Below are positions 2,618 through 62,573 of a stretch of 64,000 nt of DNA, in pieces. Under the pieces are notes generated by a model. That model made no database searches, was not told where the DNA came from, and saw only the letters and a program-made list of their open reading frames with translations. The translations under genes were made by a program, and so were the position numbers. The DNA lies in contig DASSDL010000141.1 of assembly GCA_035697145.1 (NCBI GenBank), positions 13,281 through 77,280 on the forward strand, in the 5' to 3' direction. How positions within the stretch are numbered: the stretch's first letter is position 1; each line of letters begins with the position of its first letter. The stretch comes from Acidimicrobiales bacterium (GTDB taxonomy: Bacteria; Actinomycetota; Acidimicrobiia; Acidimicrobiales; VFJN01).

Positions 2618-3589
2618 TCAGGGGGCGCCGACCGACGTGATGGAGACGGTGCTGTCGGGCTCGGCGATCGAGTCGGAGTCGCAGTCGGTCGAGAACTGGA
2701 TCGTCTTCTGGTTGTCGCCGGCCAGCCCCGCCTCGACGCTCCGCCGGGACTCCTCGAACGTCGCGCCCGTCTCGTCGGGAAATTGGTCGTAGGCGGGGAA
2801 CTTGCCCGTGAACTCGATGTCAATGTTCTGGGCGCTGAACCCCTTCCGCAGCAGATGGTCGCGAATGCCGGCGGCCAAGAGCTCCTCCAGGCCGACCCGC
2901 TCGGCGGCCAGCCTGATGCAGGCGGGGTTGAGCGTGGCCAACTGGCCGATCTTGAGGACGTTCTCGGCCGTCCCGACATTGATGTTCGTGAGGCCGAGCG
3001 TCATGCCGTCGACCGCCTTGGTCAGGATGCTCTCCGACTCCTCGGGATTGAAGACGAATGCTCCTGTCGAGTAGGTGCCGTCCTCGAGGAACACGCGTGT
3101 GCCCTTCTCGATGGGCAGGCCGCCCGCTTCCGAGATGCGCCCGTCCTCGACCGTGAAGGTCACGGGCTCGCGAAGCTGCTCCACCCGTTCCTGCACGAAG
3201 ACGTTGGCCCTGGGGATCGTCACCTTCACTTCGTTCTCGTTCGTCACCTCGACATCGGGGAGGTCCTCGACCCTGAACTCGAGCAGTCCGGGCACCTGGG
3301 CGGGGAAGACGTCGGTGTAGATGTCCTGTGTCCGGCCCAGGATCTCGATGTCGTGGGTGACCCGGAGCTCGACGTCGTTCTGCACGGCCATCAGCCCGAG
3401 CGTCGTTTCGAGCTCCGAAGCGGGGAACACCAGCTTGCTGTCCACGCCCCGGCCTTCCTCGGACTCGTTGAAGCCGAACTGATCCGAGCAGTAGCCGAGG
3501 CCCAGCGCGGCGACGCCCAGGGCGGCCACGGCGGCGATCGCGGTCCTGACCGGACCGCCCCGCCTCAGCCGCCTCTCCTCACGTCGCAT
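2618..3589 (-). CDS. hypothetical secreted/membrane-anchored protein
   Basis: 323-aa ORF with a basic N-terminus followed by a hydrophobic helix (VRTAIAAVAALGVAALGLGYC). The rest has coding-like, acidic composition. I recognise no family. Confidence 0.6.
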   Translation of the reverse strand: MRREERRLRRGGPVRTAIAAVAALGVAALGLGYCSDQFGFNESEEGRGVDSKLVFPASELETTLGLMAVQNDVELRVTHDIEILGRTQDIYTDVFPAQVPGLLEFRVEDLPDVEVTNENEVKVTIPRANVFVQERVEQLREPVTFTVEDGRISEAGGLPIEKGTRVFLEDGTYSTGAFVFNPEESESILTKAVDGMTLGLTNINVGTAENVLKIGQLATLNPACIRLAAERVGLEELLAAGIRDHLLRKGFSAQNIDIEFTGKFPAYDQFPDETGATFEESRRSVEAGLAGDNQKTIQFSTDCDSDSIAEPDSTVSITSVGAP

Positions 3590-3614
3590 GTCGCACCATC
3601 ATGTCGGGTTTGTG

Positions 3615-4151
3615 TCAATCCGTCGGCGGTAAGGACGAAGAGTCGCCGTCGGCGGCGGTCGACGCCGACGCGCCCGCCACGCAGTTGGTGCCTCCCGACG
3701 TGGACGTCGTGGGCCAGCGCATCGCCTGGAGCGTGGCGGGGCCGTACTCGCCGTCCGCGGTGATCCCGGCCCGCTGCTGCACGTCCATGACGGCGGCGGC
3801 GGTCTGGGGGCCGTACTCGCCGTCGACCGTCACACCCTCGCGATTGCACCGGGCCAGGGCGTCCTGCAACACGACCACGGCGTCCTCGTCACCCCGCCCC
3901 ACCGACATCCCACACGTGCTGGAGGCCGACGAGAAGAGATCGGTGTCGCCGGGCACCCGAACGGGTTCGGACGCAACGTCGATGACCACCACGCCGTCGC
4001 ACGTCGGCAGCCCGTCGCTCCCGCTCGTGTCGCCGCTCGCGTTCGCCTCGTCGCTTATGCCGAAGTCGAAGTCGCCATTGGACGACGACCCAAAGCCGTT
4101 CGCCGACGCGAGGGCTAGAAGTCCGAACAGCACCAGGATCAGGACTCCCAT
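3615..4151 (-). CDS. secreted protein with tandem peptidoglycan-binding (PG_binding_1-like) repeats
   Basis: I prefer the ATG at 4151 (MGVLILVLFGLLALASA signal-like start) because the strong SD AAGGAGG lies 8 nt upstream on the minus strand. The C-terminal half carries a duplicated DGEYGPxTxxAxxxxQ motif typical of PG-binding domains. Confidence 0.7.
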   Translation of the reverse strand: MGVLILVLFGLLALASANGFGSSSNGDFDFGISDEANASGDTSGSDGLPTCDGVVVIDVASEPVRVPGDTDLFSSASSTCGMSVGRGDEDAVVVLQDALARCNREGVTVDGEYGPQTAAAVMDVQQRAGITADGEYGPATLQAMRWPTTSTSGGTNCVAGASASTAADGDSSSLPPTD

Positions 4152-4318
4152 GCTGGCTCCCTCCTTCGTCGCATTCCCAACGTAGGTGTACCCGCTGAGC
4201 GGCAATCCGTGTCAACGGAACGTGCGACGGGTAGCACCGTCACGAAGGAATCGGGGATGTCGCCACTTTGTGCGCGAAAATTATCACGACAAGTGGGGAC
4301 CCGAGGCGAGGAAGGGCA

Positions 4319-5284
4319 ATGTCCGCGCACGATCACGACGCCCGAGCCGGCGGGTTCCGCCGATGGTTCACCCGTGGTGGGCGGATCGTTCCGGCGCTGG
4401 CCGTCGTCGGCGCCGGCGCCCTCGTGTTCGCCGTCGTCAACTGGGGGATCGTCGATCTTCCGGACTGGTTCGGTGGCGGCCGAAGCGATCCCGCCCCGCG
4501 GGGTTCGGTGATCTACGAGGGGCAAGCGGCGAAGACCGCGTCCGAGGACTTCCTCATCGACATCGGTGACGGCGAGGCGATGGTGGTGGTGCAGGCCAAG
4601 CAGAACTGGGACCGGTCTGGGTGGATCATCAACGGGGACTTCCAGTCCACCAACGGAACGTCGAGCGTGGCCGATCCGCAGGATGGCGGCCGGCCCGCCC
4701 GCTTGGCGGTCCAGGTGGACTACTGCGCCGACGGGACGATCACGACGACGGAGACGCCCGGCGACGACCCCGTGACCTCGATCACGTTCGCGATGGGCCG
4801 GCTCTACGTGTGCGACACGACGCTGGAGCACACGGCGGCAAACGATTCGGCGTTCAAGCAGGACGACACGCCCAACGACTTCCACGGCTCGTTCGTCAGC
4901 TTCGTGGCCGGGGCCGCCGAGGCCACCGCCGCTGCCTCGGCGTGCCCGACCGACGAGCTCGCCAAGTTCCGGACGGGCGAGTACAGGTCGTTCGTGCGCG
5001 AGCAGTTGGCCGAGCGGCTCCGGCTGCCCGTCGCCAACGTCGATGTCGTGGCCGGCCGCATCGGTGGCTCCGACGACGCGACCCAGCGGGAGCTGCGAGC
5101 GGCGCTCGAGAGCTTCGCCAACAAGCGGGACCCGGACGACCCGTCCAAGACGTACGAGGCGCTGACCATCCAGTACCTCAGCGGCGACGGCGAAGCGGTG
5201 ACCGACTCCTGTTACAACGACGCCGGAGGCCGCCAACTCGATGACCTGGGCAGCGTGCGCGCCCCCGATACCGAGGGCGAGTGA
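4319..5284 (+). CDS. hypothetical membrane-anchored protein
   Basis: ATG at 4319 preceded by GAGGAAGGG. One N-terminal TM helix (IVPALAVVGAGALVFAVVNWGIV), then a ~270-aa extracytoplasmic domain with no family I recognise. Confidence 0.6.
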   Translation: MSAHDHDARAGGFRRWFTRGGRIVPALAVVGAGALVFAVVNWGIVDLPDWFGGGRSDPAPRGSVIYEGQAAKTASEDFLIDIGDGEAMVVVQAKQNWDRSGWIINGDFQSTNGTSSVADPQDGGRPARLAVQVDYCADGTITTTETPGDDPVTSITFAMGRLYVCDTTLEHTAANDSAFKQDDTPNDFHGSFVSFVAGAAEATAAASACPTDELAKFRTGEYRSFVREQLAERLRLPVANVDVVAGRIGGSDDATQRELRAALESFANKRDPDDPSKTYEALTIQYLSGDGEAVTDSCYNDAGGRQLDDLGSVRAPDTEGE

Positions 5285-5301: not shown

Positions 5302-5661
5302 CTACAGGTACAGGCCCGTCGAGGCCTCGCCCAGTCGGGTCGACGCCACGGCGTGGACATCACGCTCGCGCAGGATCACGTAGTCGTCGCCGCGGACCTC
5401 GACCTCGTAGCGGTCCTCGGGCGCGAACAGCACGTGGTCGCCCGCCTGCATGGCCCGCACGTTCGGCCCCACCGCCACCACCTCGGCCCAGGCCAACCGC
5501 TTGGACGTCTGGGCGGTGGCCGGGATGAGGATGCCGCCCGACGACCGTCGCTCGCCCTCGGGACCCGCGATGCGAACGAGTACTCGATCGTTGAGCATCT
5601 TGATGGGCAGCTTCTCGGTTGCGGTGCCGTCGGCGGCGGTCACCGTGGCGGGGTCCGGCAC
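5302..5661 (-). CDS. GroES (Cpn10)-fold co-chaperonin paralog with N- and C-terminal extensions
   Basis: The core aligns with GroES: IKMLNDRVLVRI..SSGGILIP..AEVVAVGPNV..GDHVLF..DYVILRERDVHAV. No groEL is adjacent. An extra tail STRLGEASTGLYL follows the normal GroES end. The start is uncertain (GTG at 5661 or 5643). Confidence 0.8.
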   Translation of the reverse strand: MPDPATVTAADGTATEKLPIKMLNDRVLVRIAGPEGERRSSGGILIPATAQTSKRLAWAEVVAVGPNVRAMQAGDHVLFAPEDRYEVEVRGDDYVILRERDVHAVASTRLGEASTGLYL

Positions 5662-5730: not shown

Positions 5731-6309
5731 TCACGTCTTGACGCTGCCGCCCGAGCGCCAGTACTCACCCGAGGCCCGGTCGAGGAACCCCTCGTCGACC
5801 AGGAAGCGCCGCAGCGACGCGACGTCGTCGTGGAAGCGGCGCAGGATGGCGTTGACCTGGCGCTCCGAATAGCGGGAACCGACGTCGAACTCCTGCGCCA
5901 GGCGGTCGAGGATCACGAGCTTGCGCGACCGCTGGGGCGGGATCTGCGTCAGCCGGCCGCCCCGGTAGTAGCGCCGCAGGATCCGGGCGTCGTCCTCGGC
6001 CACGTCGTCGGTGGGGTCCGGGCCCGGGCGCTCGGGAGCGGCCGCCATGGCCGCCAATCGGAAGGCCTCGCCCCGCAGCACGTGCTCACCCCGTTCGCTG
6101 CGGATCACCAGGTCGCCGGCCACCAGCCGGGCCAGCGCGGTCACGGCCCGGCGCGACGACAGCCCCGTCGAGGCCCGCACCTCCTCGAGCGTCGACCCGC
6201 CCAGCACGAGGGCGGCGAACACGCGACGCCGGTCGTCGTCGGCCAGGAGACCGACGATGGCGCCGGCGTCCGGCACCGGGGTGGCATGGTGCTCGCCGGG
6301 GTCGGCCAC
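5731..6309 (-). CDS. HTH transcriptional regulator with C-terminal DUF2087-like domain
   Basis: Only the C-terminal 192 codons of track ORF 5731..6780 look real. They contain an ArsR-like wHTH ([37 protein letters not shown]) and a DUF2087-type end (LTQIPPQRSRKLVILDRLAQEF..YSERQVNAILRRFHDDVASLRRFLVDEGFL). The upstream part overlaps hisF in another frame. GTG at 6309 is my proposed start. Confidence 0.7.
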   Translation of the reverse strand: MADPGEHHATPVPDAGAIVGLLADDDRRRVFAALVLGGSTLEEVRASTGLSSRRAVTALARLVAGDLVIRSERGEHVLRGEAFRLAAMAAAPERPGPDPTDDVAEDDARILRRYYRGGRLTQIPPQRSRKLVILDRLAQEFDVGSRYSERQVNAILRRFHDDVASLRRFLVDEGFLDRASGEYWRSGGSVKT

Positions 6310-6363
6310 GTCCGGGAGGCTAGGGCGCTGATGGGGTGACGAGCGCTGCGAGCCACCCCACTC

Positions 6364-6384
6364 GTGGACCCTCGCGCCCACTAG
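6364..6384. promoter_or_regulatory. 21-nt quasi-palindromic motif, copy 1
   Basis: GTGGACCCTCGCGCCCACTAG is identical to 44549-44569, and the flanks are also similar (GCCACCCC upstream, GG downstream). It overlaps the hisF stop codon and sits about 55 nt upstream of the DUF2087 regulator start on the minus strand. Confidence 0.45.
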
Positions 6385-7202
6385 ACGGGCCGGACGCTGA
6401 GGCCGGCGCGTGTGAGCTCGTCCTTGGCCTCGGCGATGGTGTGCTCGCCGAAGTGGAAGATCGACGCCGCCAACACCGCGTCGGCGCCACCCTCGATCAC
6501 GCCCTCCGCAAGGTGCGCCAGCGTGCCCACCCCTCCACTGGCGATCACGGGCACGCCCACGGCGTCGGACACCGCCCGCGTGAGCTCGAGGTCGAAGCCC
6601 TCCCTGGTGCCGTCGCGGTCCATCGAGGTGAGCAGGATCTCGCCCGCGCCGCGGCGCGCGACCTCCTGCGCCCATGCCACGGCGTCGAGCGCCGTCGACG
6701 CCCGTCCGCCGTGCGTCGTCACCTCGAAGCCCCGGCCTGCCCCGGGCGTGCGGCGGGCGTCGATGGCCACGACGACGCATTGGGTGCCGAACTCGGTTGC
6801 CAACTCGGTCACGAGATCCGGGCGCTCGACCGCGGCAGTGTTGATCGACACCTTCTCGGCGCCCGCCATCAGCAGCCGTCGGGCGTCGTCGACCGACCGC
6901 ACCCCTCCCCCGACGGTGAAGGGGATGAACACCTCGTCGGCCGTGCGCCGGGCGACGTCGACGATGGTGTCGCGGGCATCGGCGGAGGCCGTGATGTCGA
7001 GGAACACGAGCTCGTCGGCGCCCTCGGCGTCGTAACGGCCGGCCAGCTCGACCGGGTCGCCGGCGTCGCGCAACCCCACGAAGTTGACACCCTTCACCAC
7101 CCGGCCGGCGTCGACGTCGAGGCAGGGGATCACCCGGACGCTACGCACCTGGCCAAGCCCCGCATCCCAGGCAGGTGCCGGGCATCCCGCCCGTTCCGGC
7201 AC
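6381..7202 (-). CDS. hisF: imidazole glycerol phosphate synthase, cyclase subunit
   Basis: [57 protein letters not shown]. The true start may be GTG at 7148. Confidence 0.95.
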
Positions 7203-37430: not shown

Positions 37431-40400
37431 TCAGCTGAGGATGGCGGCGGGGCCCAGCGCCTCCCGGAGCTGGCCGACGAGGCCGTTGCTGGCGTCCACG
37501 TTCCACCGTTCGGGTAGCCGAACGACCCGCTCCTCTCCGAGCTGGAGGAAGACCGGTGACTCGCCGGGATGATCGGCGAGGACCCGCTTGAGGTGCGCCA
37601 CCTTGGCCTCGGACAACAGCTGGGGCGGAACGCGGAGCCGCAGCGGCTCGACCTGGCCGGTGGCCACCTCGACCACGTCGATCGACTGGGCGATGAGCTT
37701 GGGGGCGTCGTCGCGGGTGTCGACCCGGCCCCGCACGATGACGACCGCATCGTCGGCCAGCTTGTGCCCGTGCTCGGTCATCGTGCGGGGGAAGACCATC
37801 ACCTCGGCCGCGGCCCGCAGGTCCTCGAGGGTGAACACCGCCATGAGATCGCCCCGGCGGGTCCACTTGCGCTGCAGCGCGGTCACCACGCCGCCCACGG
37901 CCTTGAGCTCTCCATCGTCGAGGTCGGCCAGCTCGTCGAGCGAACAGTCGGCCCTGCGGGTAAGGACAGCCTCGGCGCCCAGCAGGGGGTGATCGCTCAC
38001 GTAGAGCCCCAGCATCTCCTTCTCGAACGCCAATCGGTCGCGCTTGTCGAACTCGAGGTCGGGGATGGCCGTGCGCTCGAAGTCGCCGAAGCCGCCGGCA
38101 CCGGCATCGTCGGCGTCGCCGAACAACGTCATGATCCCCATGTCGCGCTCGCGACGCCGGGCAAGGGTGTGGTCGACGATCTGCTCGAACACCGTTAGGA
38201 GGCCCCTGCGCTTGTGGCCGACGCTGTCGAAGGCCCCCGCCTTGATCAGCGACTCGATTGTGCGCTTGTTGAGCACGGAAGGGTCGACCCGCCGGCAGAA
38301 GTCGTAGAAGTCGGCGTACGGCCCGTTGGCCTCGCGCTCGGCGACGATGTGGCCCACGAGCCCCTCGCCGACGTTGCGCACCGCCGATAGGCCGAAGATG
38401 ATGACGCGCTTCTCGCTCCCCCGCCCGCTCGGGGGCGCATTCTGGGCCCCACCGTCGCGCTCCGCCACCACCGGAACGAAGTCCGACGCCGAGCGGTTGA
38501 TGTCCGGCACCTCGACCGCGATGCCCATGGCTCGGCACTCGGCGAGGTAGATGGCCGCCTTCTCGAGGCTGGCCTTGACGCTGGTGAGCAACGCGGCCAG
38601 GTACTCGGCCGGGAAATTGGCCTTGAGGTAAGCCGTCTGGTAGGCGACGAACCCATACCCATATGCGTGCGCCTTGGGGAACGCATAATCGGCAAAAGGC
38701 TCGATGATGTCGAACCACGCTTTGCCCAGCCCGGCCCCATAGCCGGTGCGGTCGCACGCTTCAATGAACTTTTCGCGCTCGGCCGCCATGATCTCGCGGC
38801 GTTTCTTGCCGGCTGCCTTCCGCAGATTGTCAGCCTCGGCGAGAGAGTATCCGGCGAATCGCTGTGCGATCCGCATAACTCCCTCCTGATAGATGCATAG
38901 ACCGTATGTGTCACCCAACACTTCGGCGGCGTCGGGGTGCAGATATTCGACCGGCTTGCGGCCATTCTTGCGGTCGGCGTAGTCGTTGTGCATGTTCGCG
39001 GCCATGGGGCCCGGGCGGTAGAGCGCCACCAGCGCGGCCACGTCCTCGAACGTCGTCGGTTGCAGCGACCGCATGAGCGCCCGCATCGGCCCGCCCTCCA
39101 GCTGGAACACGCCCACGGAGTCGCCCCGCTGTAGCAGCTCGTACGTGGGGTCGTCGTCGAGGGGCACGCGGTCGATGTCCAGCTCGACGCCCCGGGTGTG
39201 GCGGATCACCTCGACGGTGTCGGAGATCACGTCGAGGTTGCGCAGCCCCAGGAAGTCCATCTTGAGCAGGCCCAGCTCCTCGACGCCGTGCATCTCGTAC
39301 TGCGTGACGATCGGGGCGTCCTCGAGCGATTGGCCGTTCTCGGGCTTGCGCTGGATAGGCAGGTACTCGGTGAGCGGCTCCTTGGTGATCACCACGGCGG
39401 CGGCGTGGATCCCGTCCTGGCGGCGCTGGCCCTCGAGGCCCTTGGCCACGTCGACCACCTGCCGGACGTCGGGATCGTCCTCGTACATCTGTCGCAACTC
39501 GGCCGCCATCTTGTAGCCGTCCTCGAAGCGCGGGTCGGGATCGAGGCACGCGTACAGGGGCGTGTCCCGGCCCATGATCAACGGCGGCATGGCCTTGGCC
39601 ACCCGGTCGCCGACGGCGTAGGGCTGGCCCAGCACCCGGGCGGCGTCGCGCACGGCCGCCCGGGCCTTGATGGTGGAGAAGGTGACGATCTGGGCGACGT
39701 GGTCGCGGCCGTAGCGCTCGGCGGCGTAGCGGATCATCTCGTCCCGGAAGCGGGAGTCGAAGTCCATGTCGATGTCGGGCATGGAGATGCGCGACGGGTT
39801 GAGGAAGCGCTCGAACAGGAGGTCGTAGCGGATGGGATCGAGGTCGGTGATGCGCAGGCAGTACGCCACCGCGCAACCGGCGGCGCTCCCCCGCCCCGGG
39901 CCCACCCGGATGCCGTTGCGCCGAGCGTGGGCGATGAGGTCCCAGACGATGAGGAAGTACGAGCTGAAGCCCATGTCGGCGATGACCTGCAGCTCGTACG
40001 CCAGCCGCTCCACCATGTTGTCGGGCAGCGGATCGCCCCAGCGCTGCTTGGCCCCCTCGAACGTGAGGTGGCGCAGGTAGTCGCCGTCGCTGGCGAACTC
40101 ATCGGGCAGGGGGAAGGTGGGCAGCTGCGGCTTGCCGAAGGCGATCTCGACGTCGGCCCGATCGGCGATCCACAGCGTGTTCTCGCACGCTTCGGGGACC
40201 TCGCGGAACAGCGACCGCATCTCGGCGGCGGACTTCAGGTAGTGCTGGTCGCCGTGGAACTTGAACCGGTTGGGGTCGCTCATCAGGGAACCGGTCTGCA
40301 CGCACAGCAGCGCGTCGTGGGCCACCGCGTCGTGCTGGTGGACGTAGTGGCTGTCGTTGGTGGCCAGCAGCGGCGCCCCGATGCGCCGGGCGATCTCGAC

Positions 40401-41018
40401 CAGCTGAGGGTTGGTCTTGTGCTGCTCGGCGATGCCGTGGTCCTGCAGCTCGACGAACAGGTTGTCCTTGCCGAAGATGTCCTGCAGCCGTGCCGCCTTG
40501 GCCGTGGCGCCCTCGATGTCGCCCTGGAGCATCGACTGGAGCACGTGCCCGCCCAGGCATCCGGTGGTGGCGATCAGGCCGCCGGCGTGGTCGGCCAGCG
40601 TCTCCCAGTCGAGGCGAGGCTTGTAGAAGTACCCCTCGAGGAAGGCGCGGCTGGCGAGCTGGATCAGGTTGCGGTAGCCCTCGTTGGTCTCTGCCAGCAG
40701 CGTCAGGTGGTAGTAGAGCTTCTTGCCGCCGTCGGTGTCGCCGCCGGTGTCGTCGACCCGTCCCCGCCGCGCCGGGCGTTCGAACCGGGACTCGTGGGCC
40801 ATGTAGGCCTCGGTGCCCAGGACGGGCTTGATCCCCTGCTTCCGGCACTCCTTGTAGAAGTCGAGGATGCCGTACATGTTGCCGTGGTCGGTGATGCCGA
40901 GGGCCGGCTGGCCGTCGGCGACGGCGGCGCCCACGACCTCGCCGATACGGGCAGCCCCGTCGAGCATCGAGTACTCGGTGTGGACGTGGAGGTGGGTGAA
41001 GCTTCCTCGAGGATGCAC
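37431..41018 (-). CDS. dnaE: DNA polymerase III alpha subunit
   Basis: 1195-aa ORF with the PHP domain HLHVHTEYSMLDGA, palm/fingers motifs (GPGRGSAAG, PDIDMDF) and a C-terminal OB region. Confidence 0.97.
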   Translation of the reverse strand: MHPRGSFTHLHVHTEYSMLDGAARIGEVVGAAVADGQPALGITDHGNMYGILDFYKECRKQGIKPVLGTEAYMAHESRFERPARRGRVDDTGGDTDGGKKLYYHLTLLAETNEGYRNLIQLASRAFLEGYFYKPRLDWETLADHAGGLIATTGCLGGHVLQSMLQGDIEGATAKAARLQDIFGKDNLFVELQDHGIAEQHKTNPQLVEIARRIGAPLLATNDSHYVHQHDAVAHDALLCVQTGSLMSDPNRFKFHGDQHYLKSAAEMRSLFREVPEACENTLWIADRADVEIAFGKPQLPTFPLPDEFASDGDYLRHLTFEGAKQRWGDPLPDNMVERLAYELQVIADMGFSSYFLIVWDLIAHARRNGIRVGPGRGSAAGCAVAYCLRITDLDPIRYDLLFERFLNPSRISMPDIDMDFDSRFRDEMIRYAAERYGRDHVAQIVTFSTIKARAAVRDAARVLGQPYAVGDRVAKAMPPLIMGRDTPLYACLDPDPRFEDGYKMAAELRQMYEDDPDVRQVVDVAKGLEGQRRQDGIHAAAVVITKEPLTEYLPIQRKPENGQSLEDAPIVTQYEMHGVEELGLLKMDFLGLRNLDVISDTVEVIRHTRGVELDIDRVPLDDDPTYELLQRGDSVGVFQLEGGPMRALMRSLQPTTFEDVAALVALYRPGPMAANMHNDYADRKNGRKPVEYLHPDAAEVLGDTYGLCIYQEGVMRIAQRFAGYSLAEADNLRKAAGKKRREIMAAEREKFIEACDRTGYGAGLGKAWFDIIEPFADYAFPKAHAYGYGFVAYQTAYLKANFPAEYLAALLTSVKASLEKAAIYLAECRAMGIAVEVPDINRSASDFVPVVAERDGGAQNAPPSGRGSEKRVIIFGLSAVRNVGEGLVGHIVAEREANGPYADFYDFCRRVDPSVLNKRTIESLIKAGAFDSVGHKRRGLLTVFEQIVDHTLARRRERDMGIMTLFGDADDAGAGGFGDFERTAIPDLEFDKRDRLAFEKEMLGLYVSDHPLLGAEAVLTRRADCSLDELADLDDGELKAVGGVVTALQRKWTRRGDLMAVFTLEDLRAAAEVMVFPRTMTEHGHKLADDAVVIVRGRVDTRDDAPKLIAQSIDVVEVATGQVEPLRLRVPPQLLSEAKVAHLKRVLADHPGESPVFLQLGEERVVRLPERWNVDASNGLVGQLREALGPAAILS

Positions 41019-41177: not shown

Positions 41178-42599
41178 TCAGTAGGCCAGGACGCCGGACG
41201 AGGACCCGGCGCCAGCCGGATCACCCCGGACCGCGAGCGCGTCCCAGATCGCGCCCAGCGCCCGATCGTCGTCGGGGGACGTGAGCGAGGCGCTCTCCAG
41301 CTCGGGGAGCGGCAGGCCGCGGCTGCGGAGGTAGCCGCCGATCCCCATGCGCAGGCGCCGCTCCAGCACCTGGGCGCCGGCGCGATCGATGTCGGGGAGC
41401 ACGACCGCGAACCAGTGCTGGGTCTGGTCCGGTACGTGGACCAGGTGGTCGATCACCCCACCCGCCACGAACTGGTGACCCAGCTCCCGCAGGAGCGTGA
41501 CCTGGCGCCGGTACGGCAGCAGTGCGAAGGGCTCGTCGGGCACCTGGACCAGGACCAGGGAGAACGGGCTCCCGGTGCGCTCGCAGTACGCCTTCTCGGC
41601 GGCGATGCGGTCGCACAGGAAGCGTGCGGTCCACAACCGGGTCTCCGGATCGATCGGCGGGGTCGGCGCCGACGGAGCCGCGGGTGCCGCGTGCCGGGGC
41701 GGCGAGGCGGGCCGCACCGGCGGCGGCACGGCGTCGTACCACGCCCCCGGCTGCCCGCGGGCGCCATCCGGATCGGCGACCGCGGGGGTCCCCCCAGGAT
41801 CGGACCAGGGCGCCGGCGATGGGGCGGGCGGGGCCCAGTCGCTGGGGTCCGCCTCCCCCCGAACAGCCCGGCTCCCGTACGGATCGGACCAGGGTGGGGG
41901 AGACACGGTGGGCGGGTCCGGCGGCCAGCCACTCGAGGCCAGCGGGCGTGCGGGCGGCTCCGATGGCCAGCCGGGATCCGACCCGAGTGACCCCAGGGGA
42001 TCGGCCCATTCCGAGCCGGTCGCGCCCACCTCGGCCGGCACCGGCGCGGGCTCCGACCACGCGGGCGAGTCGGCGTAGGTCGACCCGGCGTAGTCGGGAT
42101 CGTCGGCCGGCCTCGCGACCCACACCGACGTCGGCTGGCCGGCGGCGAACGCGTCGTCCCCGGGGCGGTCCCGCTTGGAGAAGGCGCGGCCCCGCGCCAC
42201 GAGCGGCGAGTCGTCCCATTCGTTGCCCTGCGACAGGCGGTCGGCCAACGGCTGGGCCCGGAGTCCCACCTCGGCCGCCACCGCGTACGCGGCCGCCCGC
42301 GTCACGGCCAGCAGCCCCACGCTCGACACCCCGGCGGCGTCCACGTCGGCGGAGCGGAGGGCCAGGTACACGATCGTGGCGGCGGCGGCAGCCAGCAATC
42401 CCGCGCTACGTCCCACGACGAGTCCCGCCGCGAACACCGGGACGAACAGCAGGGTGGCCACGACCTCGACGCGATCGACGTCGGCGGCCACCAGTCCGAC
42501 CGCGACGATCGCCACCACCACAGCAACGGCGAGCATCAACAGTGCCCGAGCCCCGTGCTCGCGCAAGCGGCCCAAGCGCGCGTTTCCCGGCATCCCCAT
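41178..42599 (-). CDS. membrane protein with Trp-Pro repeat linker and degenerate GGDEF-like C-terminal domain
   Basis: About 4 N-terminal TM helices, eight W-x-[DEP]-P repeats (aa 181-287), and a C-terminal domain with GGDEF-domain topology (PETRLWTARFLCDRIAAEKAYCERTGSPFSLVLVQV..HWFAVVLPDID). It lacks the GG[DE]EF signature. Confidence 0.6.
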   Translation of the reverse strand: MGMPGNARLGRLREHGARALLMLAVAVVVAIVAVGLVAADVDRVEVVATLLFVPVFAAGLVVGRSAGLLAAAAATIVYLALRSADVDAAGVSSVGLLAVTRAAAYAVAAEVGLRAQPLADRLSQGNEWDDSPLVARGRAFSKRDRPGDDAFAAGQPTSVWVARPADDPDYAGSTYADSPAWSEPAPVPAEVGATGSEWADPLGSLGSDPGWPSEPPARPLASSGWPPDPPTVSPPPWSDPYGSRAVRGEADPSDWAPPAPSPAPWSDPGGTPAVADPDGARGQPGAWYDAVPPPVRPASPPRHAAPAAPSAPTPPIDPETRLWTARFLCDRIAAEKAYCERTGSPFSLVLVQVPDEPFALLPYRRQVTLLRELGHQFVAGGVIDHLVHVPDQTQHWFAVVLPDIDRAGAQVLERRLRMGIGGYLRSRGLPLPELESASLTSPDDDRALGAIWDALAVRGDPAGAGSSSGVLAY

Positions 42600-42700: not shown

Positions 42701-43264
42701 CTAGAGATACGTTCCCGGGCGGGTTTCCGCTTCGACGTTGGGCTGCGGTGCACCCGGAGGAAGCCGGCGGCGCATCTCGTCGAGCTGCTGGCGGGCCGCC
42801 ATCTGCTGGGCGAAGAGCGTGGCCTGGATGCCGTGGAACAGTCCCTCCAGCCAGCCCACGAGCTGGGCCTTGGCGACCCGCAGCTCGGCTTCGCTGGGGG
42901 TCGCCGTGTCGGCGAAGGGGTGCGCCAGGCGGCCCAGCTCGTCGCGCAGATCGGGCGACAGGGCCCCCGACAGCTCCGAGATCGACGTCTCGTAGATCTC
43001 CCGCAGCCGGTCGCGGCTCTGCTCGTCGAGCTCGGACTGGCGGACCTCTTCCAGCAGGAGCTTGATCATCGACCCGATCCGCATCACCTTGGCCGGCTGC
43101 TCGACGGCCTCGTTGGGTTGATCCCGCGCCTCGCCGGGCGGCACCACCTCCGGGTGCTCGACCGGACCGGCGACCGAGCCCCCGACGGCGCTCCCGTCGG
43201 TCGAACCCGGTGGCGGCTGACCAGGCCCGGGCTGGCTGGCGTTCTGATCGTCGGTGAACGACAT
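42701..43264 (-). CDS. bpa: bacterial proteasome activator Bpa/PafE family (DUF2587)
   Basis: Strong similarity, as I recall it, to mycobacterial Bpa: VEQPAKVMRIGSMIK.LLEEVR, AQLVGWLEGLFHGIQATLFAQQMAAR. The C-terminus is ...RPGTYL (Mtb Bpa ends GQYL). I prefer ATG 43264; a TTG at 43327 is possible. Confidence 0.85.
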   Translation of the reverse strand: MSFTDDQNASQPGPGQPPPGSTDGSAVGGSVAGPVEHPEVVPPGEARDQPNEAVEQPAKVMRIGSMIKLLLEEVRQSELDEQSRDRLREIYETSISELSGALSPDLRDELGRLAHPFADTATPSEAELRVAKAQLVGWLEGLFHGIQATLFAQQMAARQQLDEMRRRLPPGAPQPNVEAETRPGTYL

Positions 43265-43323
43265 GCGGGCCATCCTGCCACGGTCGCCCGCGTATCCCGC
43301 GCGCCGGGAGGAATCCCTCGTGA

Positions 43324-44424
43324 TCAACGCCGGGCGGCCAGGAGGGGGACCAGCATCTCGGCCGACGTCAGCGACCCGTGGCGGCCGATCAGCTCGTAGG
43401 GGCCGACGTCCTGGGGGTCGTGGAAGGCCGCGCGGGTCCGCGCCACCAGGGCCACGTCCCCCAGCCGGGACCGGGCCGCCTCGGTGACCACCGGGCCCAG
43501 CCAGCCCGCCGCCACCATCTCGTCCCGCGTGACCACCCAGGCGTCATCGCCGTGGTGCTCGGCGGCTGCCTCCCACAGGGCGCCGGCCCGGCCCGGCCGC
43601 GCGTGCAGCCAGCGGAAGCGCGCCTCCCCTGACTGCATCGAGCACTGTCCCAACACCGGCGCCGCCAGCTCCACGACGTCGTCGCCGGTCTCGACCTGGC
43701 CGTGATCGGCGATGACCACCAGGGCCGCGCCCGCCGGCAGGCGGGAGACGATCCGGTCGACGACCTGGTCGATCCAGGCCAGCTCGGCGTCGTAGTACTC
43801 CCCCAGGCCGTACTCGTGGGCCACCTTGTCCAGGCCGTCGTAATAGGAGTAGACGAACGGCTCGCCACGGGCCAGGAGGCTCTCGACCTCGGTCACCATG
43901 GTCGCCATCGTGCGGTAGCCCCAGAACCGGGCGGGCTCGAGATGGGCGCCGGTGAACCCCGAGCGGCGGTACTCGGCCCGCGTCACCACCGGGGGGCGCT
44001 GGCCTAGGAACGGGGCCGTCGTCTGCATCTTGGCGGGCGGCAGGCTGTGGTGGGCGTCGCCGGCGGCGGTCGCCCAGCGCAGCACGTTGAGGACCTCGCC
44101 ATGGACCGCCATGCGGTAGCCGACGATGCCGTGCTCCCCGGGCGGCAGGCCGGTGGTGATCGACGTGAGCGCGGACGCCGTCGTCGACGGCGCCACCGTG
44201 GTGATCGGTCCTCCCTCCATGGCCGACAGCGTGGGCGCCAGGGGGCGCCGGGCCGTGAGCTGCTCCCACCCCATGCCGTCGAGCACGAATAGCACGACCT
44301 GGCGCGCGTCGACGACGATCCCCGGAAGCCAGCGCGGCGCGTCGTCGGGGGGTCCCAGGAGCGCAGGCACGACGTTCGTGACGCAGGCCCCGCCGTAGTC
44401 AGGTAGTAGGGGTTCTTGGACCAC
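43324..44424 (-). CDS. alkaline-phosphatase-superfamily (nucleotide pyrophosphatase/phosphodiesterase-like) protein
   Basis: VLFVLDGMGWEQL, TTVAPSTTASALTSITTG (metal/nucleophile Thr region), and ADHGQV near the C-terminal third. GTG start. Confidence 0.8.
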   Translation of the reverse strand: MVQEPLLPDYGGACVTNVVPALLGPPDDAPRWLPGIVVDARQVVLFVLDGMGWEQLTARRPLAPTLSAMEGGPITTVAPSTTASALTSITTGLPPGEHGIVGYRMAVHGEVLNVLRWATAAGDAHHSLPPAKMQTTAPFLGQRPPVVTRAEYRRSGFTGAHLEPARFWGYRTMATMVTEVESLLARGEPFVYSYYDGLDKVAHEYGLGEYYDAELAWIDQVVDRIVSRLPAGAALVVIADHGQVETGDDVVELAAPVLGQCSMQSGEARFRWLHARPGRAGALWEAAAEHHGDDAWVVTRDEMVAAGWLGPVVTEAARSRLGDVALVARTRAAFHDPQDVGPYELIGRHGSLTSAEMLVPLLAARR

Positions 44425-50466: not shown

Positions 50467-51564
50467 TCAGCTCTCCGGCGGGTCGGGCTGCTCGGGATCG
50501 AAGATGGCCCGCCCCCACTCGCTGGGTCGGCTCTCGGGCTCGGCCGCCGCATCAGTGCCATTGGCCCCGGGTTCACCGCCGGGAGCCAGCGTCTCGCCGG
50601 CAGAGGGTGACGGCGCCGACGGCGGCATCGGGGCGGGCGGCTCGTCACCCACCGACGTACGCAGCTCGGACGGCAGCCACGGGATGCGTTCCTCTCTCCC
50701 GCCGCCGCTCACGCGGTGAGCGTCACCCGGCGCCATGAACGGCATCGGCTGGTTCCACGGGCCGTTGTCGGACGCAGGCGGCTCCTGGAGGGCGGCGACA
50801 TGGCCACTCGTAGTTCCGGCGCCGAACGACGCCGGGTCGTCGGCGGGGTCGGATGGCGGTGGCGCCGGCGGGGTCGCGGCCGAGCGGGACCCGAACGCCG
50901 CTCGGCTGGGAAGGGGTGGGGCCGCAGGGCGTTCGATGTCGGCGAAGGCGGGCACCGGGCCTGGGGTCAGCCGGGCGTCGTCGTCGACGATTCTGTGCAG
51001 CTCGGCGATCCCGGCGCGGATGCGCTCGCGCTGCTCGTCGATGTGGCGGTTCAGCACGTCGAGGTCGGCCCGGAGCGCCTCGCGCTGGTCGACCAGGTCG
51101 TCGAGCTCCGCCTCGACGGAGGCCCGGGCATGGTCGGCACCCCGCCGCGCCTCGTCCTCGGCGGCGCCCCGGGTGCGCATGGCTTCGGCCCGGGCCTCGT
51201 CCAGCAGGCGGTTGGCCTCCTGCTTTGCCTCCTTGATGGTGGCGTCGGCAGTGCGCTGGGCCAGCACGAGTGTGCGCCGCAGCGTGTCGTCGGTCTCGTT
51301 GACACCGGCCTGGTGGAATCCCGGGGCCGCTGCCGGCGCCGCGCTCGGCCCCCGGCGCTGTACCTCCTCGAGTTGCCGCTGCATGTCGAGCAATCGTGCC
51401 TCGGCGGTCTCGGCCCGGGCGCCGACCTCACGCAGGCGCTCGTGCAGCTGCCCGACACCTGCGGCCACACGCTCCAGGAAGTCGTCGACGTCGCGGGTGT
51501 TGTAGCCACCGCGCCGTGCCTCCCGGAACTCGACAGCGTGAAGCGTCTGCGGGGTCAGTTCCAT
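50467..51564 (-). CDS. divIVA: DivIVA-domain cell-pole/division protein (Wag31-like)
   Basis: MELTPQTLHAVEFREARRGGYNTRDVDDFLERV is the canonical DivIVA N-terminus. It is followed by coiled coil and a Pro-rich tail. Confidence 0.9.
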   Translation of the reverse strand: MELTPQTLHAVEFREARRGGYNTRDVDDFLERVAAGVGQLHERLREVGARAETAEARLLDMQRQLEEVQRRGPSAAPAAAPGFHQAGVNETDDTLRRTLVLAQRTADATIKEAKQEANRLLDEARAEAMRTRGAAEDEARRGADHARASVEAELDDLVDQREALRADLDVLNRHIDEQRERIRAGIAELHRIVDDDARLTPGPVPAFADIERPAAPPLPSRAAFGSRSAATPPAPPPSDPADDPASFGAGTTSGHVAALQEPPASDNGPWNQPMPFMAPGDAHRVSGGGREERIPWLPSELRTSVGDEPPAPMPPSAPSPSAGETLAPGGEPGANGTDAAAEPESRPSEWGRAIFDPEQPDPPES

Positions 51565-51666
51565 GGCGCGACAGAGTAACGAACCCGGTCAAGGCGAACT
51601 GAAGCTCGGCCCCGGCGTCCTCAGAACATGCGCGTATGGGTCACGTGGCACCATCCGCCCGGCCTC

Positions 51667-51918
51667 TCAGCAGATCGCTCGGTACACGATCTGACCTACG
51701 AGGAAGACGATGATCGGTGACAGGTCGAGCGCCGCTACGCCCATGCGGATCGGTGGCAACAGCGAGCGGATTGGCGCCAGCACCGGCTCGGTCAGCCGGT
51801 AGAAGACGTCGTAGATCTGGGCGTAGGTCGTGCCCGGCGTGGGCAGGAACCAGCTCATGATGATGCGGGCGAAGATGACCAGCATGTAGAGCTGGATCGC
51901 GATGCAGACGATGATCAC
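51667..51918 (-). CDS. yggT: YggT-family membrane protein
   Basis: 83-aa, two-TM protein (YMLVIFARIIMSW..P...LP........DLSPIIVFL) in the conserved sepF-yggT-divIVA position. Confidence 0.8.
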   Translation of the reverse strand: MIIVCIAIQLYMLVIFARIIMSWFLPTPGTTYAQIYDVFYRLTEPVLAPIRSLLPPIRMGVAALDLSPIIVFLVGQIVYRAIC

Positions 51919-51979
51919 GGGTGGGGTGGCTCCCGACGGTGCTGGCGAAGACGGGCGGGCGGACGGACGAGGCGGGCGT

Positions 51980-52648: not shown

Positions 52649-52674
52649 GAGTCCTCCACGGCCGTGTCTGGTAA

Positions 52675-54113: not shown

Positions 54114-54128
54114 CGAGGACCTCCCCGG

Positions 54129-55250: not shown

Positions 55251-55427
55251 GGGTCGTCCCACCTCCACCTTCGAGGGTCACCGGGGAGAATTTGTCCGGC
55301 TCGGAACCGCCGTTGCTCCCGAGCAGGGGTTTCGAGAAAGTACCAAAGGCCCGCAGCCCCACCGGCACCGGCCTCAGCCTCAAGTGGAGGTCGATACTTT
55401 TCCTCAACCTCTGGTTGTTCTCGCAGC

Positions 55428-57166: not shown

Positions 57167-57224
57167 GAGAGCACCACGACTCGGCCGCAGGCCGAGGCCA
57201 TTTCATGCCTCCGGCGGAGAACCA

Positions 57225-62566: not shown

Positions 62567-62573
62567 AGCACCA

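What the first reader, a model, noticed from the sequence alone, without database searches (positions are those of the whole stretch)
5302..5661. Stand-alone GroES-fold paralog whose extra C-terminal tail ends G-L-Y-L, like the proteasome-docking GQYL motif
The ORF aligns with GroES through its core (IKMLNDRVLVRI / SSGGILIP mobile-loop end / AEVVAVGPNV / GDHVLF / DYVILRERDVHAV). It differs from canonical GroES in three ways.
- No groEL is nearby.
- The segment corresponding to the GroES roof hairpin is shortened.
- Thirteen residues follow the normal GroES C-terminus and end ...EASTGLYL-stop, which I verified codon by codon at 5302-5328.
Established knowledge: actinobacterial 20S proteasome activators (Mpa, Bpa) dock into alpha-ring pockets with a C-terminal GQYL motif, with Tyr penultimate. 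This same window encodes a clear Bpa homolog (42701-43264) ending GTYL, so the organism probably has a 20S core that reads G-x-Y-L tails. GroES is a heptamer, matching the 7-fold alpha ring. My hypothesis, which is pure inference, is a heptameric GroES-like cap or adaptor for the proteasome. A tail-mediated interaction with another ring ATPase is an alternative.
Basis: inference. Interest (0 to 1): 0.6.

Follow-up and report, generated by a model that had tools for sequence, protein, structure and literature searches.

The report
GroES-like protein with proteasome-docking tail
A small relative of the chaperone lid GroES, conserved in hundreds of Acidimicrobiia species, always ends in the four-residue tail (Gly-x-Tyr-Leu) that known bacterial proteasome activators use to dock on the proteasome, so it may be an unrecognised seven-fold proteasome cap; binding has not been tested.

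Summary
ORF 5302-5661(-) encodes a 119-aa Cpn10/GroES-fold protein. It scores below every NCBIfam GroES cut-off, lacks 9-11 roof-hairpin residues, and has no groEL in the 64-kb window. It carries a disordered N-terminal extension and a variable tail linker ending TGLYL-stop.

The tail is under strict selection:
- 120/120 closest database homologs end GLYL, and so do 80/80 species-level genome loci. All synonymous codons and all three stop codons are used.
- A second Actinomycetota clade, about 45% identical, ends GQYL in 119/119. That is the exact Mpa/Bpa motif.
- The window's own Bpa ends GTYL, as do 117/120 Acidimicrobiales Bpa homologs.

At least 583 GTDB species carry the gene, usually directly upstream of hisI/trpE and never near groEL.

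No paper in the searched library links GroES with GQYL/HbYX tails. A structural precedent exists: the chloroplast co-chaperonin Cpn11/20/23 caps ClpP.

Best explanation (about 0.5): a GroES-type heptamer whose seven tails insert into the seven alpha-ring pockets of the 20S proteasome.

Untested: genome-level co-occurrence with prcAB, the oligomeric state, binding, and whether a canonical groES is present in the same genomes.

The parts
5302..5661 (-). Complete ORF of the GroES-like protein (119 aa, GTG start, TAG stop at 5302-5304)
   Evidence: The identical product is called on four public contigs. Pfam Cpn10 matches at E=2.3e-19.
5608..5661 (-). N-terminal extension (residues 1-18, MPDPATVTAADGTATEKL), absent from canonical GroES. 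It varies in sequence and length across the family.
   Evidence: Alignment to E. coli and M. tuberculosis GroES. pLDDT is below 50 for residues 1-14. Clade 2 has a Lys/Arg-rich version.
5344..5607 (-). Cpn10/GroES beta-barrel core (residues 19-106). It includes the N-terminal strand IKMLNDRVLV and the C-terminal strand DVHAVA, which form the subunit interface in GroES heptamers.
   Evidence: Pfam match covers residues 20-105. Model strands are 26-31, 57-64, 76-79, 85-89, 92-98 and 102-106. Foldseek top hits are GroES chains.
5500..5568 (-). Mobile-loop equivalent (residues 32-54, AGPEGERRSSGGILIPATAQTSK), with a GroEL-binding-type hydrophobic tripeptide I-L-I. This is the most conserved part of the family.
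   Evidence: E37, R38, G43, I46, P47, A48 and T49 are invariant across both clades. pLDDT is below 50 for residues 34-53, as expected for a flexible loop.
5437..5469 (-). Shortened roof segment (residues 65-75, GPNVRAMQAGD). It is 9-11 residues shorter than the GroES roof beta-hairpin.
   Evidence: Alignments. The model shows no hairpin here.
5317..5343 (-). Variable flexible linker (residues 107-115, STRLGEAST)
   Evidence: Sequence and length vary among homologs: 21-25 residues from the RERD motif to the end. Low pLDDT is reported for residues 111-119.
5305..5316 (-). Invariant C-terminal motif G116-L117-Y118-L119, followed directly by the stop codon. This is the proposed 20S alpha-ring docking motif.
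   Evidence: 120/120 homologs. 80/80 genome loci, with all synonymous codons and all three stop codons used. GQYL in 119/119 of clade 2. G116, Y118 and L119 are invariant across both clades.
42701..43327 (-). Bpa/PafE homolog ending PGTYL. It is not part of the gene, but it is evidence that this organism has a reader for G-x-Y-L tails. It would probably compete for the same pockets.
   Evidence: PF10759 at E=7.8e-64. C-terminus read. 117/120 Acidimicrobiales homologs end GTYL.

Best explanation
The gene encodes a diverged paralog of the co-chaperonin GroES, and I propose that it caps the 20S proteasome.

- **Ring (inferred from fold and conserved interface strands).** It probably assembles into the usual seven-membered ring. 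The roof hairpin is deleted, which should leave an axial opening.
- **Tail (shown).** Each subunit carries a flexible C-terminal tether of about 9 residues ending in an invariant (T)-G-x-Y-L with a free carboxylate.
[quoted passage not shown] The tyrosine would stack on the PrcA Arg26 equivalent. The terminal carboxylate would pair with the Lys52 equivalent. The result would be a symmetry-matched, ATP-independent cap.
- **Effect of binding (inferred).** Penultimate-Tyr tails open the gate on binding and the roof is missing, so the most likely outcome is gate opening for unfolded proteins or peptides, as with 11S/PA26 or Bpa. A competing cap or inhibitor, or an alpha-ring assembly chaperone, are sub-alternatives.
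- **Mobile loop (open).** The strongly conserved GroEL-type mobile loop either makes a second contact with the alpha ring, or lets the same protein also bind GroEL. The second case would couple folding and degradation.

Shown: the fold, the tail and its selection, the lineage distribution, and a Bpa with the same kind of tail. Inferred: the heptamer, docking, and the functional outcome.
For: 1. **Invariance at the extreme C-terminus.** G-x-Y-L is the last four residues in 120/120 homologs, 80/80 genome loci and 119/119 members of clade 2, which end in the canonical GQYL. In the 50%-identity cluster representatives, 84 of the 109 that reach the end of the core end in YL. The 25 exceptions are stop-codon read-throughs that differ by one base from a stop, frameshifts, or another family.
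2. **Purifying selection on the peptide.** Gly uses 4 codons, each Leu 5, Tyr 2, and all three stop codons occur. The loci span 46-77% GC.
3. **Tethered-motif architecture.** The linker is variable, the model has low pLDDT for residues 111-119, and Thr at position -5 occurs in 77/81. M. tuberculosis PafE also has Thr just before GQYL (bioRxiv 10.1101/249060).
4. **The contacts that matter are retained.** Tyr makes a cation-pi contact with PrcA R26 and the terminal carboxylate pairs with K52 (bioRxiv 10.1101/249060). The Gln is dispensable (PMC12288473).
5. **The same genome and lineage keep Bpa with GTYL**. Bpa is reported only from 20S-encoding actinobacteria and was itself discovered by this tail logic (PMC4254994).
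6. **It is not an ordinary GroES.** It scores below all NCBIfam cut-offs, has no roof hairpin, and is never within 10 kb of groEL in 80 loci.
7. **Precedent.** A GroES-type heptamer caps a seven-fold protease ring in the chloroplast Cpn11/20/23-ClpP complex (PDB 7EKQ; bioRxiv 10.1101/2021.07.26.453741). 7EKQ Cpn20 is also the best solved-structure sequence hit.
8. **Distribution.** The family was found only in Actinomycetota-labelled or evidently mislabelled records. That is the one bacterial phylum where 20S proteasomes are regularly found.
Against: - No proteasome gene lies in the window or within 10 kb of the gene in any of the 81 genome-derived loci examined.
- Gene context points instead to his/trp biosynthesis in Acidimicrobiia, and to a methyltransferase and YjbQ in clade 2.
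- Genome-level co-occurrence with prcA/prcB was not tested. The presence of 20S rests on the Bpa proxy and on the literature.
- The heptameric state and the direction of the tails are inferred from GroES, not modelled. The monomer model has only moderate confidence (pLDDT 65).
- The mobile loop, including the GroEL-binding hydrophobic tripeptide, is the most conserved element. That argues for a conserved GroEL-like partner.
- I could not show that these genomes also have a canonical groES.
- G followed by three mostly hydrophobic residues also resembles the GroEL-binding GG-I-V-L loop motif.
Confidence: 0.5

Rival explanations
1. It is a specialised second co-chaperonin that works with GroEL. 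The mobile loops bind the apical domains as usual. The G-L-Y-L tail is an extra GroEL-binding or cavity-lining element, or it tunes the chaperonin cycle. On this view the resemblance to GQYL is convergent.
For: - The mobile loop keeps the GG-I-L-I-P pattern of GroES and is invariant across both clades.
- The Cpn10 fold and the interface strands are retained.
- G plus three mainly hydrophobic residues resembles the GroEL-binding tripeptide context.
- Clade 2 locus L081 has a groEL about 10 kb away.
- C-terminal add-ons to GroES are known, for example H. pylori HspA (from my own knowledge).
Against: - GroEL apical grooves do not need a free carboxylate, yet across three samples (120/120, 80/80 and 119/119 sequences) no residue follows YL.
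- Clade 2 has a polar Gln at position -3, giving the exact proteasome motif.
- The protein scores below all GroES equivalog cut-offs.
- The roof hairpin that closes the folding chamber is deleted.
- The gene is never adjacent to groEL in 80 loci.
Confidence: 0.2
2. Its role is tied to histidine/tryptophan biosynthesis. It could be an assembly or stability factor for an enzyme encoded in the same operon (HisI, TrpE, HisF/HisH), and the tail would bind that partner.
For: - In 53 of 73 Acidimicrobiia loci, hisI or trpE starts within 100 nt of its stop on the same strand. In 24 the gap is 30 nt or less, or the genes overlap.
- The order hisH-hisA-hisF-[gene]-hisI-trpE is conserved across loci of 46-77% GC.
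Against: - Clade 2 keeps the fold, the loop and a GQYL tail in a completely different, monocistronic-looking context.
- In the window itself, three unrelated genes separate it from hisI.
- No known His or Trp enzyme uses a GroES-fold partner or reads a Y-L carboxy-terminus (from my own knowledge).
- Conserved position may reflect only ancestral synteny and co-expression. Amino-acid starvation is itself a condition linked to proteasome function in mycobacteria (from my own knowledge).
Confidence: 0.1
3. It caps another seven-fold protease ring, ClpP1P2, through its mobile loops, as chloroplast Cpn11/20/23 caps ClpP. The tail would serve a different purpose.
For: - The co-chaperonin-ClpP complex is structurally documented and uses the mobile loops (bioRxiv 10.1101/2021.07.26.453741).
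- Cpn20 of that complex is the best solved-structure sequence hit, at E=5.5e-16.
- The mobile loop is highly conserved.
Against: - This model does not explain the invariant free-carboxylate G-x-Y-L.
- ClpP clefts read internal LGF/IGF-type loops, not C-termini (from my own knowledge).
- No clp genes lie in the neighbourhoods examined.
Confidence: 0.07
4. The tail is a C-terminal recognition signal for the protein's own fate. It would be a degron or a PDZ/tail-specific-protease ligand that controls turnover or localisation of a GroES paralog, not a docking device.
For: C-terminal hydrophobic and aromatic motifs with a free carboxylate are what PDZ domains and some proteases read (from my own knowledge). 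Strict terminal placement fits this.
Against: - A degron rarely stays invariant over two clades only about 45% identical, together with the preceding Gly.
- The motif matches a known docking motif used by Bpa in the same genome.
- The known PDZ proteases of actinobacteria are extracytoplasmic (from my own knowledge). I saw nothing resembling a signal peptide in the N-terminus, but ran no prediction.
Confidence: 0.08

Closest known systems
Bpa/PafE (Rv3780), the ATP-independent bacterial proteasome activator
   Same: - It is a ring-forming, ATP-independent small protein.
- It has a disordered C-terminal tether ending in an invariant (T/P)-G-x-Y-L with a free carboxylate.
- It is encoded far from the Pup-proteasome locus, in an unrelated neighbourhood.
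- It is restricted to Actinomycetota.
- It was discovered by the same 'conserved C-terminal motif' argument (PMC4254994).
   Different: - There is no sequence or fold relationship: Bpa is PF10759 (a four-helix-bundle protein, from my own knowledge), and this protein is a Cpn10 beta-barrel.
- Bpa is a dodecamer with a 12:7 symmetry mismatch and a C-terminus of about 21 residues. Here a 7:7 match and a tail of about 13 residues are expected.
- Binding and activation are demonstrated for Bpa. Nothing has been tested here.
GroES/Cpn10 co-chaperonin (PF00166)
   Same: - It is a homologous domain (E=2.3e-19, about 30-35% identity to M. tuberculosis GroES).
- It has the same beta-barrel and the same N- and C-terminal interface strands.
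- It has a flexible mobile loop with a GG-hydrophobic tripeptide-P pattern.
   Different: - It scores below all NCBIfam GroES cut-offs.
- The roof hairpin is deleted.
- It has N- and C-terminal extensions.
- It has family-specific invariant residues (R55, L56, W58, R98-E99-R100-D101).
- It is never next to groEL.
Chloroplast co-chaperonin Cpn11/20/23 bound to ClpP (PDB 7EKQ)
   Same: A GroES-type seven-domain dome caps a seven-fold self-compartmentalising protease coaxially. This links the chaperonin cofactor to proteolysis. Some of its domains also lack the roof (bioRxiv 10.1101/2021.07.26.453741).
   Different: - There the normal co-chaperonin of Cpn60 moonlights.
- It uses its mobile loops, not a dedicated C-terminal tail.
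- Its target is ClpP, not the 20S proteasome.
- Its effect is inhibition.
11S activators PA26/PA28 (REG) of eukaryotic proteasomes
   Same: It is a heptameric, ATP-independent ring with an axial channel. Its short unstructured C-terminal tails insert into the alpha-ring pockets through a carboxylate-lysine salt bridge (as summarised in bioRxiv 10.1101/249060).
   Different: - The fold is an unrelated helical one.
- The tails lack a penultimate Tyr.
- Gate opening needs a separate activation loop.
- It is eukaryotic.
Other modified GroES homologs: phage T4 Gp31 and H. pylori HspA
   Same: Gp31 lacks the roof hairpin (it is a Foldseek hit, 1g31; the roof statement is from my own knowledge). HspA shows that GroES can carry a functional C-terminal extension (from my own knowledge).
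   Different: Both still work with GroEL. Neither has a G-x-Y-L tail.

Membership tests
GroES/Cpn10 co-chaperonin | Cpn10 domain and fold | tested here: met
   Pfam PF00166 at E=2.3e-19, 69.7 bits against a cut-off of 21.1. Foldseek top hits are GroES chains at probability 1.00.
GroES/Cpn10 co-chaperonin | Flexible mobile loop carrying a hydrophobic tripeptide that binds GroEL | tested here: met
   The sequence GERRSSGGILIPATAQ aligns to the GroES loop, is invariant in the family and has low pLDDT. Binding itself was not tested.
GroES/Cpn10 co-chaperonin | Roof beta-hairpin closing the dome | tested here: not met
   The segment is 9-11 residues shorter than in E. coli and M. tuberculosis GroES. 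The model shows no hairpin there.
GroES/Cpn10 co-chaperonin | Scores as a GroES equivalog in curated NCBIfam models | tested here: not met
   The best model, NF001530, gives 50.2 bits against a cut-off of 136. All 15 models score below cut-off.
GroES/Cpn10 co-chaperonin | Encoded with or next to groEL | tested here: not met
   There is no Cpn60 in the 64-kb window. None lies within 10 kb in 80 Acidimicrobiia loci. One lies about 10 kb away on the opposite strand in clade 2 locus L081.
GroES/Cpn10 co-chaperonin | Heptamer that binds GroEL with ATP and supports folding | not testable with these tools
   This needs multimer modelling or biochemistry.
Bacterial proteasome interactors with a C-terminal GQYL-type motif (Mpa/ARC, Bpa/PafE) | Conserved G-x-Y-L at the extreme C-terminus with a penultimate Tyr | tested here: met
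   GLYL in 120/120 homologs and 80/80 loci. GQYL in 119/119 of clade 2. A stop codon follows directly in every case.
Bacterial proteasome interactors with a C-terminal GQYL-type motif (Mpa/ARC, Bpa/PafE) | Motif presented on a flexible tether from a ring-shaped oligomer | tested here: inconclusive
   The tether is supported by the variable linker and by low pLDDT for residues 111-119. The ring is only inferred from GroES homology.
Bacterial proteasome interactors with a C-terminal GQYL-type motif (Mpa/ARC, Bpa/PafE) | Occurs only in genomes that encode prcA/prcB | not tested
Only proxies exist: Bpa in the same window, GTYL-tailed Bpa throughout Acidimicrobiales, and the literature (PMC4254994, PMC3511204).
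Bacterial proteasome interactors with a C-terminal GQYL-type motif (Mpa/ARC, Bpa/PafE) | Tail-dependent binding to the 20S alpha ring and an effect on proteolysis | not testable with these tools
   This needs AlphaFold-Multimer with the cognate PrcA, or pull-down, peptidase and cryo-EM experiments.
Bpa/PafE family (PF10759) | Sequence homology to Bpa | tested here: not met
   The protein matches only Cpn10. The window's true Bpa is a separate gene. The relationship is analogy, not membership.

The most novel reading that the evidence does not exclude
This would be a fourth class of bacterial proteasome regulator, derived from the chaperonin lid GroES. It would be a roofless heptameric ring whose seven G-x-Y-L tails fill all seven alpha-ring pockets. 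That would be the first symmetry-matched, 11S-like activator in bacteria. Its retained GroEL-type mobile loops would let it switch between GroEL and the 20S proteasome, physically coupling the fold-or-degrade decision. Its co-transcription with hisI/trpE would tie this to amino-acid supply.
Probability: 0.25. Interest if true: 0.85.

Novelty: new variant of a known kind. Interest (0 to 1): 0.7.

Why it matters
A 2025 minireview names three bacterial proteasome activators or interactors: Mpa/ARC, Bpa/PafE and Cpa (PMC12288473). It states that nothing is known about how activator association with the 20S core is regulated. Both well-studied activators bind the seven-fold alpha ring with mismatched symmetry (6 or 12 subunits) and only weakly in vitro.

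A GroES-derived heptamer with the same docking motif would matter in four ways:
- It would be a naturally symmetry-matched cap.
- It would be a new example of fold recruitment to proteasome regulation.
- It would be a bacterial counterpart of the co-chaperonin-ClpP crosstalk seen in chloroplasts.
- It would show that important parts of the bacterial proteasome system lie outside the mycobacterial and streptomycete models, in the abundant but little-studied Acidimicrobiia of soil, water and wastewater (at least 583 species).

The proposal is directly testable with a 119-residue protein and a two-residue deletion. If the tail instead serves GroEL, the family is still an undescribed, widespread roofless GroES variant that databases currently name simply 'co-chaperone GroES'.

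Tried and rejected
1. **Guilt by association.**
   - I mapped window genes onto 80 genome loci and read called genes around clade 2 members. No proteasome, pup, arc or clp genes appeared.
   - The context is his/trp in Acidimicrobiia, and a methyltransferase plus YjbQ in clade 2.
   - Bpa lies about 6 kb upstream in L071 and L073. This is only the conserved Bpa-dnaE block brought closer by rearrangement, so I do not count it as evidence.
3. **Full Pfam annotation of the window.** I looked for proteasome or Cpn60 genes. There are none. The window holds his genes, trpE, dnaE, ileS and the dcw cluster.
4. **Identifying the source genome.** An exact-protein look-up found only short metagenome contigs.
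5. **Literature.** Searches for GQYL with GroES, HbYX with GroES, 'bacterial proteasome' with Cpn10, and Acidimicrobiia with proteasome found no prior description.
6. **Transcription signals and RNA families.** Rfam and promoter/terminator scans around the gene found nothing.
7. **AlphaFold database fold search.** The library was unavailable.
8. **Apparent counter-examples.**
   - Contigs labelled Bifidobacterium, a genus without a 20S proteasome, share synteny and about 70% identity with the window's his/trp genes. They are mislabelled.
   - In the 50%-identity cluster representatives, 25 sequences reach the core end without a terminal YL. They are stop-codon read-throughs whose next codon is one base from a stop, frameshifts, or a different family.
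9. **Heptamer or complex modelling.** I considered this and dropped it. The structure tool takes single chains from the window only and returns no coordinates.
Full report
**1. The observation**

The ORF at 5302-5661 on the minus strand is real. It has a GTG start, encodes 119 aa and ends in TAG. The last codons read GAG GCC TCG ACG GGC CTG TAC CTG TAG, which is E-A-S-T-G-L-Y-L-stop. Its codon-position GC (0.73/0.48/0.92) matches the coding pattern of this 72.7% GC window. Public gene calls on four contigs give the identical 119-aa product.

It is a Cpn10/GroES-domain protein:
- Pfam PF00166 matches at E=2.3e-19 over almost the whole model.
- The best solved-structure sequence matches are Chlamydomonas Cpn20 (7EKQ, E=5.5e-16), then Thermus and M. 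tuberculosis GroES.
- An AlphaFold model (mean pLDDT 65, pTM 0.56) has the GroES strand pattern. Its top Foldseek hits are M. tuberculosis Cpn10 and other GroES chains.

It is not a standard GroES:
- All 15 NCBIfam GroES models score far below their cut-offs, at best 50 bits against 136.
- The roof-hairpin segment is 9-11 residues shorter than in E. coli and M. tuberculosis GroES.
- It has an N-terminal extension of about 18 residues.
- It has 11-13 extra C-terminal residues.
- The window has no groEL (Pfam scans).

It matches PF10759 at E=7.8e-64 and ends PGTYL. Of 50 predicted window proteins, only that one and this ORF end in YL.

**2. The tail is a selected feature**

- All of the 120 closest 90%-identity cluster representatives (72-95% identical) end GLYL.
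- In the 80 loci retrieved, the gene ends GLYL-stop in 80/80. Gly uses 4 codons, each Leu 5 and Tyr 2, and all three stop codons occur.
- Those loci span 46-77% GC. The peptide and its terminal position are conserved, not the DNA.
- Position -5 is Thr in 77/81. Position -6 and the rest of the linker vary. The distance from the RERD motif to the end varies from 21 to 25 residues.

A whole-library HMMER search gave 150 representatives of 50%-identity clusters:
- 84 of the 109 that reach the end of the core end in YL: mostly GLYL, with three GQYL and two GMYL.
- The other 25 are read-throughs in which GLYL is followed by a residue whose codon is one base from a stop (Q, W, R, C, G), frameshifted ORFs, or another family.
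- I found no intact, full-length member without the tail. Rare natural exceptions cannot be excluded from metagenome data.

A second clade, about 45% identical and labelled only 'Actinomycetota bacterium', ends GQYL in 119/119. That is the exact Mpa/Bpa motif.

Across both clades the invariant positions include G116, Y118 and L119. They also include a block in the mobile loop (E37, R38, G43, I46, P47, A48, T49) and the family-specific residues R55, L56, W58 and R98-E99-R100-D101. The nine linker residues before the motif are not conserved. The model gives low confidence to residues 1-14, 34-53 (mobile loop) and 111-119 (tail), as expected for flexible segments.

**3. Where the gene lives**

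Source names place the window and the 80 loci in Acidimicrobiia: Microthrixaceae, Iamiaceae, Ilumatobacteraceae, Acidimicrobiaceae and Aldehydirespiratoraceae. A few records are labelled Bifidobacterium, Acidobacteria or Chloroflexi. The three such genome contigs I checked (L001, L003, L061) share the same synteny and about 70% identity in their his/trp genes, so those labels are errors.

The order hisH-hisA-hisF-[GroES-like]-hisI-trpE on one strand recurs in most loci:
- hisI or trpE starts within 100 nt of the stop in 53 of 73 loci. In 24 the gap is 30 nt or less, or the genes overlap.
- hisF usually lies about 700 nt upstream. In L008 and L019 a divergently oriented ORF of about 220 aa, which looks like an alpha/beta-hydrolase by eye, fills the gap.
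- In many species the gene therefore looks like the first cistron of a [GroES-like]-hisI-trpE unit.
- In the window, a DUF2087 ORF lies upstream. Three extra genes (2618-5284) separate the gene from hisI.

Clade 2 has a different conserved context: a divergent PrmC-like methyltransferase and a convergent YjbQ.

None of the 80 Acidimicrobiia loci has groEL within 10 kb. No locus has a PrcB-like gene either. Gene context neither supports nor contradicts a proteasome link. The same was noted for Bpa when it was discovered (PMC4254994).

The protein's median identity to the window copy (74.5%) is at least as high as that of HisF, HisI and TrpE in the same loci (68-72%). The caveat is that the loci were chosen by similarity to this protein.

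**4. What the tail most likely does**

Established knowledge:
- Mpa/ARC and Bpa/PafE dock on the 20S alpha ring through C-terminal GQYL.
- In the PafE-20S structure the Tyr makes a cation-pi contact with PrcA R26, and the terminal carboxylate makes a salt bridge with K52. This rotates the alpha subunits and opens the gate (bioRxiv 10.1101/249060).
- The Gln is not essential (PMC12288473).
- M. tuberculosis PafE has Thr just before GQYL (bioRxiv 10.1101/249060), as this family does.
- Bpa was found by searching for conserved C-terminal HbYX-type motifs, and it occurs only in 20S-encoding actinobacteria (PMC4254994).

The evidence here:
- The window encodes Bpa ending GTYL. Among its 120 best homologs (those carrying a source name are all labelled Acidimicrobiales), 117 end GTYL.
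- So this lineage maintains a reader of G-x-Y-L tails and tolerates different residues at x.
- A motif that must be the very last four residues, sits on a variable tether and retains exactly the Gly, Tyr and Leu-carboxylate is what alpha-ring pocket docking requires.
- GroEL apical grooves and ClpP clefts read internal segments, so they do not explain the strict terminal placement.

Inference:
- GroES homologs are heptamers held by the N- and C-terminal strands, both conserved here. Seven tails would therefore face seven pockets.
- The tail of about 13 residues is close to the unstructured C-termini of the heptameric 11S activators. PafE's 21-residue C-terminus is described as nearly twice their length (bioRxiv 10.1101/249060).
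- Loss of the roof hairpin should leave an axial opening.

Precedent: the chloroplast co-chaperonin Cpn11/20/23 caps the seven-fold ClpP ring coaxially, through its mobile loops, and inhibits it (bioRxiv 10.1101/2021.07.26.453741; PDB 7EKQ).

I therefore commit to a GroES-derived heptameric cap that docks on the 20S alpha ring by its tails (confidence about 0.5). Gate opening, an activator role, is the most likely consequence. Inhibition by competition, or alpha-ring assembly assistance, are sub-alternatives.

**5. What argues against it, and the rivals**

- The mobile loop, including a GroEL-type hydrophobic tripeptide, is the most conserved element. The simplest rival is a specialised GroEL co-chaperonin whose tail has a chaperonin-related role (0.2). 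A dual GroEL/20S binder would reconcile both views.
- The his/trp operon position suggests a biosynthetic partner (0.1). Clade 2 lacks that context.
- ClpP capping through the loops (0.07) and a C-terminal degron or PDZ ligand (0.08) explain less.

Key gaps:
- I could not compute genome-level co-occurrence with prcAB.
- I could not show a canonical groES in the same genomes.
- I could not model oligomers or complexes.

**6. Comparison and novelty**

By homology this is a member of the Cpn10 superfamily. It fails three features of functional GroES: the roof hairpin, the equivalog score and groEL linkage. By proposed mechanism it works like Bpa/PafE or 11S activators, but it is unrelated to them in fold.

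Seven literature searches, including GQYL alone, GQYL with GroES, HbYX with GroES, and 'bacterial proteasome' with Cpn10, found no prior description. A 2025 minireview lists only Mpa, PafE and Cpa (PMC12288473). Databases name these proteins 'co-chaperone GroES' or 'chaperonin GroES'.

I rate it a new variant of a known kind. It is a widespread, roofless, tail-bearing GroES paralog, and a strong candidate for a new class of proteasome interactor.

**7. Verdict**

Interest is 0.7. Decisive tests are listed separately.

Noticed in passing
window 5302-5661 relative to 2142-2570 (hisI) and 6381-7202 (hisF); loci L001-L080: The GroES-like gene occupies a conserved slot, hisH-hisA-hisF-[gene]-hisI-trpE, on one strand. 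In 53 of 73 loci hisI or trpE starts within 100 nt of its stop, and in some the genes overlap. This suggests co-transcription with hisI/trpE. The functional reason is unexplained. One speculative link is amino-acid starvation and proteolytic recycling.
   Followed up: partly
window 2618-5284: Three genes lie between the GroES-like gene and hisI in the window. They are a 323-aa protein with no Pfam hit, a 196-aa peptidoglycan-binding-domain protein, and a 338-aa protein with no Pfam hit on the opposite strand. Most related genomes lack them at this position, so this looks like a local insertion.
   Followed up: partly
window 5731-6780 (-), DUF2087 match in the C-terminal part; L008 9257-9940 and L019 9277-9927: The gap between hisF and the GroES-like gene holds a DUF2087-domain ORF in the window. 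In other Acidimicrobiia the same gap holds a divergently oriented ORF of about 220 aa that looks like an alpha/beta-hydrolase by eye (not scanned against Pfam). The long 349-aa ORF call at 5731-6780 overlaps hisF and is probably shorter in reality.
   Followed up: partly
proteins P0257, P0271-P0389; loci L081, L086, L087, L088: A second clade of the family ends in the canonical GQYL. It has a Lys/Arg-rich N-terminal extension (for example KPRKPRAKKA). It sits between a divergent PrmC-like methyltransferase and a convergent YjbQ gene. Its taxonomic class is unknown; records say only 'Actinomycetota bacterium'.
   Followed up: partly
proteins P0125, P0134, P0150, P0154, P0192, P0243: In these rare variants GLYL is followed by read-through sequence. 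The first extra residue (Q, W, R, C, G) is always one base change from a stop codon. They could be sequencing errors or real stop-loss alleles that would bury the terminal carboxylate.
   Followed up: partly
window 37431-41018 (dnaE) and 42701-43327 (Bpa); L071 3772-4245 and 4360-7932; L073: Bpa lies next to dnaE in the window and in L071. In L071 and L073 the Bpa block sits only about 6 kb from the GroES-like gene, because the his genes are elsewhere. In the window, a 473-aa ORF (41178-42599) with no Pfam hit sits between Bpa and dnaE.
   Followed up: partly
loci L001, L061, L003; protein P0366: Public records label these contigs Bifidobacterium, Acidobacteria or Chloroflexi. The three genome contigs (L001, L061, L003) carry the Acidimicrobiia his/trp synteny, with about 70% identity to the window genes, so these are probably binning or labelling errors. 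P0366 (labelled Chloroflexi) belongs to clade 2, so its label was not checked in this way.
   Followed up: yes
window 50467-63976: The right end of the window is a standard division and cell-wall (dcw) cluster on the minus strand: mraY, murD, ftsW, murB, ftsQ, ftsZ, sepF, a YGGT-family gene and a DivIVA-like gene. It is ordinary and unrelated to the finding.
   Followed up: no
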